From NCBI GenBank assembly GCA_964486265.1, contig CAZAMW010000002.1:1-30017 (forward strand): 30,017 bases of DNA, in the 5' to 3' direction. The notes under the pieces were generated by a model that saw only the letters and a program-made list of their open reading frames with translations, searched no databases and was not told where the DNA came from. This DNA comes from an uncultured Nitrosopumilales archaeon (lineage in GTDB: Archaea; Thermoproteota; Nitrososphaeria; Nitrososphaerales; Gagatemarchaeaceae). The translations under genes and the position numbers were made by a program. Shown piece by piece: positions 5,562 through 26,055 of the stretch (within the stretch, counting starts at the first letter, position 1; every line of letters begins with the position of its first letter).

Positions 5562-6602
5562 ATGGCTATCATGAGCGAGCTCAGGAAGGTCCAGAAGGTG
5601 GGCTACTCCACGCTGACGGTCTCAATCCCGGCGGAATATGTCAAGAGCATGAAGCTCCACGAGGGAGACAGTCTGATGGTGAAGGAGGAGGCGGACGGAA
5701 CGCTCCGGCTGATTCCGCTCACAGGCAGCCTCAGGACGCTGAAGGCCTCGATCAAGGCTGACCAGGTCGAAAACGACGAGCTGCTCTCCAAGCTGATCGT
5801 CGGCTGCTACATGTTGGGGTACGACGCAATCGAGCTGACGTCCAGGAACAAGATTAGGCCGTCACTCCTGTCGCGGGGAAGCACGACACTACGCGGTCTC
5901 AGAGGAGTGGAGGTGGTGGAGTCGGGCGGCGACAGACTGCTTGCGCAGAGCTTCATGGACCCGACGAAGTTTCCAGTGGACTCGCTAATCAGGAGGCTGC
6001 AGCTGCTCGTCTCGAGGAGCCTCGAAGCTTCGATAGAGGCACTGCGGAGTGGTAGCCCCGGTCTTCTCAACGAAATCAGGAGAACCCAGCAGGAGGTCGA
6101 CGAACTCTACTGGCTCATCGTGAGGCAGCTGCTGGTCGCTCTGAGCAACCGGGAGATCTCCAGCAAGATAGGCCTCGAGAGCCCGCTTCACACGTCGGGC
6201 GACAGGGTCTCGGCCAAGACCATAGAGGAGATCGGCAGGATAATCCTGGAGGTCACGGAGGAGATTGTCAACTTCAAGGAGATTGGGATGAACGTCGATG
6301 AGAAAGCCCTGAGCAGGATCGAGGGTCTTTCCAGAAAGGCGCAGGAGACGTTCGAGAGCACCATGGACAGTTTGCTCAGTCCCGACGTCAAGACAATAGC
6401 GAGGGCGATGGAGCTCATAGAGAGCACGCTGAAGTTCGAGAGGGAACTGATGTCGGAATCGTTGGAGTCTGAGTACCCATACATGCGTGCCATAATCTCG
6501 GACTTCGGGCAGCTGGCGCGCTACTGCAACATCATCATCGAGATCGCGTTGAACAGGCTCCTGAGAAGGACCAGCAGAGTCTGTGTCATCACGAGCCAAT
6601 AG
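5562..6602 (+). CDS. phoU: Archaeal phosphate uptake regulator (AbrB/SpoVT N-domain plus PhoU domains)
   Basis: N-terminal RKVQKVGYSTLTVSIP...EGD...DGTLRLIP, then IVGCYMLGYD and helical PhoU repeats (EVDELYWLIVRQL). Confidence 0.85.
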   Translation: MAIMSELRKVQKVGYSTLTVSIPAEYVKSMKLHEGDSLMVKEEADGTLRLIPLTGSLRTLKASIKADQVENDELLSKLIVGCYMLGYDAIELTSRNKIRPSLLSRGSTTLRGLRGVEVVESGGDRLLAQSFMDPTKFPVDSLIRRLQLLVSRSLEASIEALRSGSPGLLNEIRRTQQEVDELYWLIVRQLLVALSNREISSKIGLESPLHTSGDRVSAKTIEEIGRIILEVTEEIVNFKEIGMNVDEKALSRIEGLSRKAQETFESTMDSLLSPDVKTIARAMELIESTLKFERELMSESLESEYPYMRAIISDFGQLARYCNIIIEIALNRLLRRTSRVCVITSQ

Positions 6603-6651
6603 AACAAGCGTTGAGAAACCCTTTTGACTGGTGGAGAGTCTCGCCCCGAAT

Positions 6652-6776
6652 GCGGGGATAGCTAAGCACGGCCAACGGCGGCGGACCGGGTGCCGAAACT
6701 CAAGATCTAGCTGACTCTAGGAGGAGTCATCCGCTCCCTTAGGGGTTCGTGGGTTCAAATCCCACTCCCCGCACCA
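6652..6776 (+). tRNA. tRNA-Leu(CAA) with two introns: 13 nt at 30/31 (6685-6697) and 24 nt at 37/38 (6705-6728); CCA encoded
   Basis: Acceptor GCGGGGA/TCCCCGC-A-CCA, T-arm GTGGG-TTCAAAT-CCCAC, long variable arm. The stem GCGGA/TCCGC with loop CT-CAA-GA forms only after both inserts are removed, and both show BHB-type pairing. Confidence 0.85.
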
Positions 6777-7258
6777 TGCGCAGGACTCTGCAGCTCTTTC
6801 GCCATGATCACGTTCGTGGCCCGATAGCCGAGGTCCTCGTACAGCTTGCGGGCGCGTACGTTGTGTCCGAACACATGGAGCGCAATCCTCCTCATCCCCG
6901 TCTCCTTCGCCCTGTCTTCGAGAAGCCTCAGAGCTGCTCTTCCATACCCCCTCCCTCGGAGACCCTGCTCGACCTCGATGTCGTAGATGAACATCGTGCC
7001 CTTCGGTTGGTTCTCTGCCTCCGTAGTGTACCAGATGATGCCCACCTTACGGTCCTTCTCGTTCTCGTCGGCTATGAAGTAGATGTAGTGGTCCTTGGTG
7101 CGCCGTCCCTGAGGGAGGAGGGATTCGAACTCTCTCCTTGACGCCTCTGGATCCTGGTCCTCGTTCCCGGCCTTGACCCTTTCAGCGAAGTAATCTGCAA
7201 TCGCGCGGTCTTTGCATTTTTGAAACTCCTCGTCGGTCATCTCGATGAAGTTGACCAT
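6755..7258 (-). CDS. GNAT family N-acetyltransferase
   Basis: Acetyl-CoA motif FIYDIEVEQGLRGRGYG and LHVFGHNVRARKLYEDLGY. Confidence 0.9.
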   Translation of the reverse strand: MVNFIEMTDEEFQKCKDRAIADYFAERVKAGNEDQDPEASRREFESLLPQGRRTKDHYIYFIADENEKDRKVGIIWYTTEAENQPKGTMFIYDIEVEQGLRGRGYGRAALRLLEDRAKETGMRRIALHVFGHNVRARKLYEDLGYRATNVIMAKELQSPAHGAGSGI

Positions 7259-25951: not shown

Positions 25952-25955
25952 GAAG

Positions 25956-26055
25956 AGCCTCGGGAGGGATTTGGACCCTCGACCACCTGCTTACAAGGCA
26001 GGTGCTCTACCAGGTTACCCGAAAGGCACCGCGCCTTTCACTGAGCTACCGAGGC
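25956..26055 (-). tRNA. tRNA-Thr(TGT) with a 26-nt D-loop intron at 15/16 (26015-26040)
   Basis: GCCTCGG/CCGAGGC acceptor, CCTGC-CTTGTAA-GCAGG anticodon arm. The intron has hairpin GAAAGGC/GCCTTTC, central helix GCTC/GGGT, and bulges AG|T and AA|C. Confidence 0.9.

What the first reader, a model, noticed from the sequence alone, without database searches (positions are those of the whole stretch)
6652..6776. Two-intron tRNA-Leu(CAA) with a minimal 13-nt non-canonical intron
Seen: the 44 nt between the anticodon-stem halves reduce to CT-CAA-GA by removing ACCGGGTGCCGAA (30/31; perfect central helix CGGC/GCCG, 3' bulge AA|A) and a 24-nt 37/38 intron (CTC/GAG pairing, inner TCTAG/CTAGG). Inference: the 13-nt intron is a bulge-helix-loop near the minimum size, so this single UUG decoder needs sequential processing.
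Basis: partly seen in the sequence, partly recalled or inferred. Interest (0 to 1): 0.6.

Follow-up and report, generated by a model that had tools for sequence, protein, structure and literature searches.

The report
Two-intron leucine tRNA gene, soil archaeon
This is a real leucine tRNA gene of an uncultured Nitrososphaerota archaeon, interrupted by a 13-base and a 24-base intron on either side of the anticodon; it is well supported, but such genes are already known to be common in this lineage.

Summary
Window 6652-6776 (+) is a tRNA gene. Removing 6685-6697 (13 nt, position 30/31) and 6705-6728 (24 nt, position 37/38) leaves a perfect 85-nt type-II tRNA-Leu(CAA) plus an encoded CCA.

- **Junctions.** Intron 1 pairs exon C25-C28 with intron GCCG (4/4), with a 3' bulge AA|A and the 5' site in a 9-nt loop. 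Intron 2 pairs CTC with GAG (3/4).
- **Relatives.** The gene sits downstream of the same PhoU-like gene across the family. It occurs with a 30/31 intron, with a 32/33 intron, or with no non-canonical intron. All 20 distinct non-canonical introns in the first ortholog set have a 4/4 helix in exactly one register. All spliced products fold as cloverleaves with compensatory changes.
- **Enzymes.** The genome encodes an EndA catalytic subunit with the specificity-loop lysine, a second EndA-family fragment, and RtcB.

The kind is known: tRNAscan-SE 2.0 reports 22 two-intron genes among 141 tRNAs in Nitrososphaerales. Thirteen nt is not shown to be a minimum. tRNA-Leu(UAA) also exists in the genome, so CAA is not necessarily the only UUG reader.

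The scan had already noted a three-intron tRNA-Met in this same window.

The parts
6652..6776 (+). tRNA-Leu(CAA) gene with two introns; CCA is encoded at 6774-6776
   Evidence: Rfam tRNA model, 35 bits over 6652-6773 with a 43-nt insert in the anticodon loop. The spliced product is called Leu(CAA) by ARAGORN.
6652..6684 (+). 5' exon, tRNA positions 1-30 (acceptor 5' strand, D-arm, G26, G27-G30)
   Evidence: Direct reading; cloverleaf pair counts over spliced orthologues.
6685..6697 (+). Intron 1, 13 nt, non-canonical position 30/31, bulge-helix-loop type. By sequence alone 6686-6698 or 6687-6699 would give the same product.
   Evidence: Register test: helix 4/4 only at 30/31, and 1/4 in the two other registers. 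The 30/31 junction is the only product-preserving register in orthologue L009.
6679..6682 (+). Exon strand of the central helix of intron 1 (C25 G26 G27 C28); pairs with 6692-6695
   Evidence: CGGC/GCCG is conserved in 11 distinct 30/31-type orthologues, with one G-U (GTCG) in L009.
6692..6695 (+). Intron strand of the central helix of intron 1 (GCCG), followed by the 3' bulge A6696 A6697 | A6698
   Evidence: The 5' part of the intron varies among orthologues, while GCCG plus two further nt is kept.
6698..6704 (+). Middle exon, 7 nt: A31, C32, U33, anticodon C34 A35 A36, G37
   Evidence: The CTCAAGA island is invariant in all orthologues, including those that lack intron 1.
6705..6728 (+). Intron 2, 24 nt, canonical position 37/38, relaxed BHB. 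Helix: C6699-G6726, T6700-A6725, C6701-G6724, A6702xG6723. Bulges: AG|A and TC|A. Inner stem: 6706-6710/6717-6721, or 6706-6708/6720-6722.
   Evidence: Register test: 3/4 only at 37/38, flanking helix of 6 bp once intron 1 is removed. Orthologues score 2/4 to 4/4 at 37/38.
6729..6773 (+). 3' exon: A38, anticodon-stem 3' strand 6730-6734, 14-nt variable arm 6735-6748, T-arm 6749-6765, acceptor 3' strand 6766-6772, discriminator A73
6616..6632 (+). Possible archaeal TATA-like T-rich element (CCTTTTGA), about 26-29 nt upstream of the tRNA 5' end and just after the PhoU-like gene's stop at 6602
   Evidence: Inference only. Some orthologues have a T-rich TTCTTTATC / CTCTATATC motif upstream of the tRNA, but I did not align or test it.
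5562..6602 (+). Upstream PhoU-domain / AbrB-like gene, the synteny anchor for orthology of the tRNA locus
   Evidence: Pfam PF01895 and PF04014. tblastn finds it next to the tRNA in the ortholog loci that hold enough flanking sequence and in named Nitrososphaerota records.

Best explanation
The region is a functional tRNA-Leu(CAA) gene of a Nitrososphaerota archaeon. Its transcript has to lose two protein-spliced introns before it can work.

Intron 1 (13 nt, between positions 30 and 31) forms a relaxed bulge-helix-loop. Exon nucleotides 25-28 (CGGC) pair with the intron's GCCG. The 3' cut lies in the 3-nt bulge AA|A. The 5' cut lies two nucleotides past the helix, inside a 9-nt loop. Forming this helix borrows nucleotides from the D-stem and the top of the anticodon stem.

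Intron 2 (24 nt, between positions 37 and 38) forms the usual anticodon-intron helix (CTC with GAG), with bulges AG|A and TC|A.

The splicing endonuclease EndA, of the two-subunit type with the specificity-loop lysine, cuts at the four sites. RtcB then joins the ends. Because the two motifs compete for nucleotides 27-28 and 32-33, and because the middle exon is only 7 nt long, the introns are most likely removed one after the other, with ligation in between.

Shown here: the gene, the junction registers, conservation, and the presence of the enzymes. Inferred: actual splicing, the order of removal, and the heterotetrameric state of the enzyme.
For: - Splicing as proposed gives a perfect Leu(CAA) cloverleaf.
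- Only the 30/31 and 37/38 registers give a BHB-type central helix.
- All 20 distinct non-canonical introns in orthologues have a 4/4 helix in exactly one register. Twenty more from named Nitrososphaerota/Nitrososphaerales records behave the same way, with some overlap between the two sets.
- The intron's 5' part varies freely, while GCCG plus two further nt is kept.
- Exon positions 25, 27 and 28 co-vary with intron type: GCGGA stem and C25 go with GCCG at 30/31; CGGGA stem goes with CCCG at 32/33.
- Spliced products of 27 orthologues (19 distinct) have no mispairs in the acceptor, anticodon, T or variable stems, with compensatory changes at 3-70, 4-69, 7-66, 10-25, 12-23, 27-43 and 28-42.
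- Orthology is supported by synteny with the PhoU-like gene.
- EndA alpha (185 aa) aligns without gaps in the specificity-loop region to the A. pernix catalytic subunit 3p1z_B (E 1e-41), with K and K at the positions of K44 and R46 (role of K44 from PMC3241643).
- A second EndA-family fragment lies at a contig end. Three of four relatives searched, including two single-contig genomes, have two separate EndA genes.
- RtcB is present.
- Literature: multi-intron tRNAs with adjacent introns that need iterative removal are known in Thaumarchaeota (PMC8450103).
Against: - There is no RNA evidence. Mature junctions and processing intermediates were not observed.
- Intron 2's central helix is only 3/4 here, which arises by chance in 18% of shuffles.
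- Minimum-free-energy folding of the precursor does not give either motif cleanly, and it prefers a shifted CGGC/GCCG pairing with 6676-6679.
- The flanking helix of intron 1 is only 2 bp, and there is no inner stem.
- The beta subunit in this genome is seen only as a 64-aa fragment at a contig end.
Confidence: 0.9

Rival explanations
1. There is one 37-nt intron (6688-6724), leaving the anticodon loop CCAGTCA. This is the tRNA-Thr(AGT) call that ARAGORN makes with its intron option.
For: ARAGORN -i reports exactly this.
Against: - The loop lacks U33 and has C37.
- The body is type II, with a 14-nt variable arm and A73, which fits Leu and not Thr.
- I checked the BHB helix for those junctions by eye (6682-6685 against 6719-6722) and found no pairs; this was not scripted.
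- The supposed intron contains the CTCAAGA island, which is invariant. In orthologues without intron 1 that island abuts the anticodon stem directly.
Confidence: 0.01
2. The gene is a decaying or non-functional tRNA copy, and the inserts are junk.
For: Default tRNA finders miss it. The Rfam score is low at 35 bits. The genome is only about 70% complete, so another Leu(CAA) gene could exist unseen.
Against: - The pattern search finds one copy per genome, including in single-contig relatives.
- The locus is syntenic.
- The spliced product has no mispairs in the acceptor, anticodon, T and variable stems, and the stems show compensatory changes across 19 distinct sequences.
- The intron helices are maintained.
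Confidence: 0.03
3. Both introns are real, but the 13-nt intron is cut at 31/32 or 32/33. The product would be the same. EndA would recognise the intron's own CGG/CCG hairpin bulged out of an intact anticodon stem.
For: The duplicated AC dinucleotide (6685-6686 and 6698-6699) makes three registers equivalent in product. The conformer with the anticodon stem formed and the intron hairpin extruded is feasible, at -41.6 kcal/mol. The sister lineage uses 32/33.
Against: - The 31/32 and 32/33 registers give only 1/4 helix pairs here.
- The internal CGG/CCG hairpin is not conserved; for example, the intron reads AATTCGTGCCGAA in L004.
- L009 admits only the 30/31 register.
- The conformer with the 25-28/GCCG helix is more stable, at -47.7 kcal/mol.
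Confidence: 0.06

Closest known systems
Two-intron tRNA genes of Thaumarchaeota/Nitrososphaerales, as catalogued by tRNAscan-SE 2.0 (PMC8450103, Supplementary Table S7)
   Same: One canonical 37/38 intron plus one non-canonical BHB-type intron in the same gene, close enough together that one must be removed before the other motif forms. Same phylum. The census counts 22 of 141 tRNA genes with two introns in three Nitrososphaerales genomes.
   Different: This gene comes from an uncultured lineage (relatives are labelled Thaumarchaeota / Nitrososphaerota MAGs; one is Ca. Gagatemarchaeum) that the record names give no sign of being in that census. I could not run tRNAscan-SE to see whether its Thaumarchaeota intron model calls this intron.
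Multi-intron tRNA genes of Thermoproteales (SPLITSX; Sugahara et al. 2007, 2008, cited in PMC4090602 and PMC6379350)
   Same: Short non-canonical introns at many positions, including the anticodon stem. Relaxed hBH / HBh' / BHL motifs. Dependence on a two-subunit EndA.
   Different: Different phylum and a mesophilic setting. There are two introns here, whereas Thermoproteales genes have up to three.
BHL mini-helix of Cenarchaeum symbiosum pre-tRNA-Tyr, the standard relaxed substrate for A. pernix EndA (PMC3241643)
   Same: A thaumarchaeal bulge-helix-loop intron, in which one splice site lies in a loop instead of a 3-nt bulge. Cleavage requires the specificity-loop lysine, which is conserved in this genome's EndA alpha.
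   Different: Different tRNA and different position. That substrate was tested biochemically; this one has not been.
Ordered processing of multiple BHB motifs in Cyanidioschyzon merolae pre-tRNAs (PMC3728597)
   Same: Several BHB introns per pre-tRNA are removed in a defined order, and the anticodon-arm motif is processed last. Introns can be as short as 11 bp.
   Different: That is a eukaryotic nuclear system with a different endonuclease architecture.

Membership tests
tRNA-Leu (archaeal type II tRNA) | Cloverleaf with a 7-nt anticodon loop, U33, a purine at 37 and a Leu anticodon | tested here: met
   After removal of both inserts the loop reads C-U-CAA-G-A, and ARAGORN calls Leu(CAA).
tRNA-Leu (archaeal type II tRNA) | Long variable arm and an A73 discriminator | tested here: met
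   A 14-nt variable arm at 6735-6748 with a 3-bp stem, and A at 6773. That these are Leu identity elements is established knowledge and was not tested here.
Archaeal EndA-spliced intron (BHB and relaxed forms) | A 4-bp central helix between the 4 nt preceding the 5' bulge and the 4 nt preceding the 3' bulge | tested here: met
   Intron 1: 4/4 Watson-Crick (6679-6682 with 6692-6695). Intron 2: 3/4 (6699-6701 with 6724-6726; A6702xG6723). These hold only in the 30/31 and 37/38 registers.
Archaeal EndA-spliced intron (strict hBHBh') | Two 3-nt bulges, each cut after its second nucleotide, flanked by outer helices | tested here: not met
   Intron 1 has the 3' bulge AA|A, but its 5' site lies in a 9-nt hairpin loop with no inner helix, which makes it a BHL. 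Intron 2 has both bulges but a mismatch in the central helix. Both are relaxed forms, not strict BHB.
Archaeal EndA-spliced intron (relaxed BHL / HBh') | One bulge replaced by a loop; requires an (alpha-beta)2 or epsilon2 EndA with a specificity loop (PMC6379350) | tested here: met
   The motif geometry is met. EndA alpha aligns to A. pernix 3p1z_B through the loop region, with Lys at the K44 position. A second EndA-family gene is present as a fragment here, and three of four relatives searched have two genes.
Archaeal EndA-spliced intron | An RtcB-type ligase to join the exons | tested here: met
   PF01139 match, 495 bits, at contig C110:4192-5391.
Archaeal EndA-spliced intron | Excision demonstrated at the RNA level | not testable with these tools
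   No transcript or tRNA-seq data were available.
Heterotetrameric (alpha-beta)2 EndA | Two distinct subunits that assemble, one catalytic and one structural | tested here: inconclusive
   Two EndA-family genes are seen. Which one is structural, and whether they assemble, was not examined.

The most novel reading that the evidence does not exclude
The syntenic tRNA-Leu(CAA) locus occurs across this family in three states.

- A 13-16-nt intron at 30/31, with anticodon stem GCGGA and C25. A 34-35-nt version of this form, which keeps an inner stem, occurs in a second family.
- A 13-16-nt intron at 32/33, with anticodon stem CGGGA.
- No non-canonical intron.

The states are patchy on two neighbour and marker gene trees. 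If the 30/31 and 32/33 introns are homologous, this would be a 2-nt intron slide made possible by co-evolving exon positions 25, 27 and 28, together with frequent precise loss. That would make the locus a natural series for studying how BHB introns move, shrink and disappear. The alternatives are independent gains, or replacement of the whole tRNA gene by recombination.
Probability: 0.3. Interest if true: 0.45.

Novelty: new member of a known kind. Interest (0 to 1): 0.2.

Why it matters
The practical point is about annotation. This tRNA is missed by ARAGORN and by Rfam with default filters, and ARAGORN's intron mode miscalls it as Thr(AGT). Genomes of this lineage will therefore look as if they lack the cognate UUG tRNA unless an intron-aware archaeal mode is used.

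Biologically, it adds a clean, comparatively well-supported example of a bulge-helix-loop intron whose recognition helix borrows D-stem and anticodon-stem nucleotides. The orthologue series (three states at one syntenic locus) could also be used to study intron turnover. It does not change what is known about archaeal tRNA splicing.

Tried and rejected
- **Naive BHB scan.** Scanning the whole precursor for any 4-bp helix gives dozens of hits per sequence and is useless on its own. I replaced it with a test restricted to product-preserving registers.
- **Thermodynamic folding.** The minimum-free-energy fold of the precursor is not tRNA-like, and it pairs GCCG with the neighbouring CGGC repeat at 6676-6679. 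Cutting there would delete three nucleotides of the D-stem strand. Energies therefore do not decide the junctions or the order of removal.
- **Single 37-nt intron.** The Thr(AGT) reading is rejected.
- **Gene trees.** Trees of the PhoU-like neighbour and of RtcB, built to place the intron states, disagree with each other and with the genus labels. They show only that the states are patchy and that the 30/31 type is clustered.
- **Shortest archaeal tRNA intron.** Literature look-ups failed: Marck & Grosjean 2003 and Sugahara 2007 are not held. A search for 'intron sliding' in archaeal tRNAs found nothing relevant, and a 2026 Asgard intron preprint does not mention this phylum.

Full report
**What is there**

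Window 6652-6776 (+) reads as a tRNA.
- Acceptor stem GCGGGGA/TCCCCGC: 6652-6658 with 6766-6772.
- D-arm: 6661-6679.
- G26: 6680.
- Anticodon-stem 5' strand G27-G30: 6681-6684.
- Anticodon-stem 3' strand TCCGC: 6730-6734.
- Variable arm, 14 nt: 6735-6748.
- T-arm: 6749-6765.
- A73: 6773.
- Encoded CCA: 6774-6776.

Forty-four nucleotides lie between the anticodon-stem halves, where seven are expected.

Default tools do not report the gene. ARAGORN finds only two other tRNAs in the window. Rfam with standard filters finds three others. Rfam with lax filters scores the region at 35 bits against the tRNA model (gathering score 29), with a 43-nt insertion in the anticodon loop.

**Checking the two-intron reading**

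Deleting 6685-6697 (13 nt) and 6705-6728 (24 nt) gives an 88-nt product that ARAGORN calls tRNA-Leu(CAA), with loop C-U-CAA-G-A.

With its intron option, ARAGORN instead proposes one 37-nt intron and tRNA-Thr(AGT). That loop lacks U33, and the body is type II with A73, so I reject it.

Several registers give the same product, because short repeats flank each insert. I therefore scored every product-preserving register against the EndA geometry: a 4-bp helix between the four nucleotides before the 5' bulge and the four before the 3' bulge, with each cut after the second bulge nucleotide.
- Intron 1: only 30/31 scores 4/4 (C6679-G6695, G6680-C6694, G6681-C6693, C6682-G6692). The registers 31/32 and 32/33 score 1/4.
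- Intron 2: only 37/38 scores 3/4 (C6699-G6726, T6700-A6725, C6701-G6724). Its flanking helix is 6 bp once intron 1 is gone, and it has a 3-5-bp inner stem.

Intron 1 has a proper 3' bulge, A6696 A6697 | A6698. Its 5' site lies in a 9-nt loop, G6683 G6684 | A6685 to T6691. That makes it a bulge-helix-loop, a relaxed form described in PMC6379350.

**Is it more than chance?**

On this sequence alone the evidence is modest.
- Shuffling the 13 nt gives a 4/4 Watson-Crick helix in 2% of trials.
- For intron 2, 3/4 or better arises in 18% of trials.

The comparative evidence is what settles it.

**Orthologues**

A DNA search of 60 relatives found full-length matches. Pattern searches across the order and the genus found one Leu(CAA) gene per matching genome.

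In the family, the gene lies directly downstream of the same PhoU-domain gene, so these are orthologues by synteny. Three states occur.

| State | Intron 1 | Anticodon stem | Central helix | Distinct sequences |
|---|---|---|---|---|
| A | 30/31, 13-16 nt | GCGGA | C25-C28 with GCCG | 11, including two 34-35-nt forms |
| B | 32/33, 13-15 nt | CGGGA | C27-G30 with CCCG | 9 |
| None | no non-canonical intron | CGGGA | not applicable | 12 |

- The window belongs to state A.
- The two 34-35-nt forms come from a second family. They keep a CCTCT/AGAGG-type inner stem and the same ...GCCGAG|A end.
- All 20 non-canonical introns have a 4/4 helix (one with a G-U) in exactly one register.
- In L009 the 30/31 junction is the only register that keeps the product.
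- The 5' part of the intron varies freely, while the helix strand and the two bulge nucleotides are kept.
- A second, named collection gave 7 more loci at 30/31, 13 at 32/33 and 15 without the intron. Again every intron scored 4/4. Some of these records are the same genomes as in the first set.
- The titles of those records place the lineage in Nitrososphaerota / Nitrososphaerales (older label Thaumarchaeota). One relative is named Ca. Gagatemarchaeum.

**The spliced product is a good tRNA**

I spliced 27 orthologues in silico, giving 19 distinct sequences.
- No mispairs occur in the acceptor, anticodon, T or variable-arm stems.
- Compensatory changes occur at 3-70, 4-69, 7-66, 10-25, 12-23, 27-43 and 28-42.
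- State A always has C25, G27 and C28, the nucleotides its intron helix needs.

**Enzymes**

- EndA alpha: the genome encodes a 185-aa protein with both endonuclease domains. Its best solved relative is the A. pernix catalytic subunit 3p1z_B (E 1e-41). The alignment is gap-free through the Crenarchaea-specific loop, with K and K at the positions of K44 and R46. K44 is the residue required for cutting BHL substrates (PMC3241643).
- Second subunit: a second EndA-family fragment lies at a contig end. Three of four relatives searched, among them two single-contig genomes and the nearest relative, have two separate EndA genes. This fits the two-subunit type reported for Thaumarchaeota (PMC4090602).
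- Ligase: RtcB is present.

**How it most likely works**

Shown here: the gene, the junction registers, their conservation, and the presence of the enzymes.

Inferred: the order of processing.
- The helix of intron 1 uses nucleotides 27-28, which the anticodon stem also needs. The anticodon stem is the outer helix of intron 2.
- The 2-bp outer helix of intron 1 (C32-G24, U33-G23) uses nucleotides that the central helix of intron 2 needs.
- The middle exon is only 7 nt long. Cutting all four sites at once would release a 7-mer that is barely tethered.

One-at-a-time removal, with ligation in between, is therefore the economical reading. It has precedent: iterative motif formation in archaeal tRNAs (PMC8450103) and ordered processing in C. 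merolae, where the anticodon-arm motif goes last (PMC3728597).

Constrained folding favours the intron-1 helix conformer (-47.7 kcal/mol) over the cloverleaf with an extruded intron (-41.6 kcal/mol). The unconstrained fold is not tRNA-like, however, so I do not rest the order on energies.

**What is overstated in the finding**

- 'Near the minimum size'. Relatives carry 13-16 nt. The motif geometry would allow shorter introns. Eleven-bp BHB introns are reported in C. merolae (PMC3728597).
- 'Single UUG decoder'. The genome also has tRNA-Leu(UAA), with a 23-nt canonical intron, at C72:2402-2509. By standard wobble it could read UUG. The genome is also only about 70% complete.

**Novelty**

The kind is well known. 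tRNAscan-SE 2.0 carries a dedicated Thaumarchaeota intron model. It reports, for three Nitrososphaerales genomes, 141 tRNA genes with 44 canonical and 53 non-canonical introns, 22 of the genes having two introns. This gene is a new member of that kind.

The only less ordinary aspect is the orthologue series. Two intron positions 2 nt apart co-vary with exon sequence, there is presence/absence variation within a genus (G009 lacks the intron that its close relatives have), and the distribution is patchy on the PhoU and RtcB trees. Whether that reflects intron sliding, independent gain or gene replacement is open.

Noticed in passing
L009:293-437 (genome G029): The orthologous Leu(CAA) gene appears to carry a third insert of about 21 nt, just after the acceptor 5' strand (GCGGGAG, then the insert, then TAGCC). 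I did not resolve its junctions.
   Followed up: partly
L034 and L035 (genomes G095 and G112, a different family): The same 30/31 site carries a 34-35-nt intron that ends in ...GCCGAG|A or ...GCCGAA|A and has a 5-bp inner stem. The acceptor 5' strand is not found in the 75 nt upstream, so these genes may have a further 5' intron.
   Followed up: partly
L051 (genome G054): This Leu(CAA) gene has no 37/38 intron. Instead it has an insert of about 19 nt in the 3' part of the D-arm.
   Followed up: no
window 6755-7258 (-): The open frame of a GNAT acetyltransferase runs 22 nt into the tRNA's 3' end on the opposite strand. The Pfam domain ends about 18 residues earlier, so the overlap is probably just a read-through tail.
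   Followed up: partly
genome contigs C85:2603-2713, C80:2704-2817 and C228:2691-2780: These are Rfam tRNA hits of 90-114 nt that ARAGORN cannot call or calls implausibly (for example Leu(CAA) with a 7-nt intron). They are probably further genes with non-canonical or multiple introns.
   Followed up: no
genome contig C72:2402-2509 (-): tRNA-Leu(UAA) with a 23-nt canonical intron. ARAGORN miscalls it as Ser(CGA).
   Followed up: partly
window 25955-26025 (-) and 29798-29887 (+): The first is tRNA-Thr(UGU), whose D-arm matches Rfam only partially (model positions 6-65, 29.7 bits). The second is tRNA-Thr(GGU) with a 16-nt canonical intron.
   Followed up: no
RtcB loci L083, L089, L097, L102, L103 and L104: In several relatives the RtcB match sits in an open frame of about 1000 aa, against about 490 aa elsewhere, and the match starts at query residue 10-14. 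This could be an intein or a fusion near the N-terminus.
   Followed up: no
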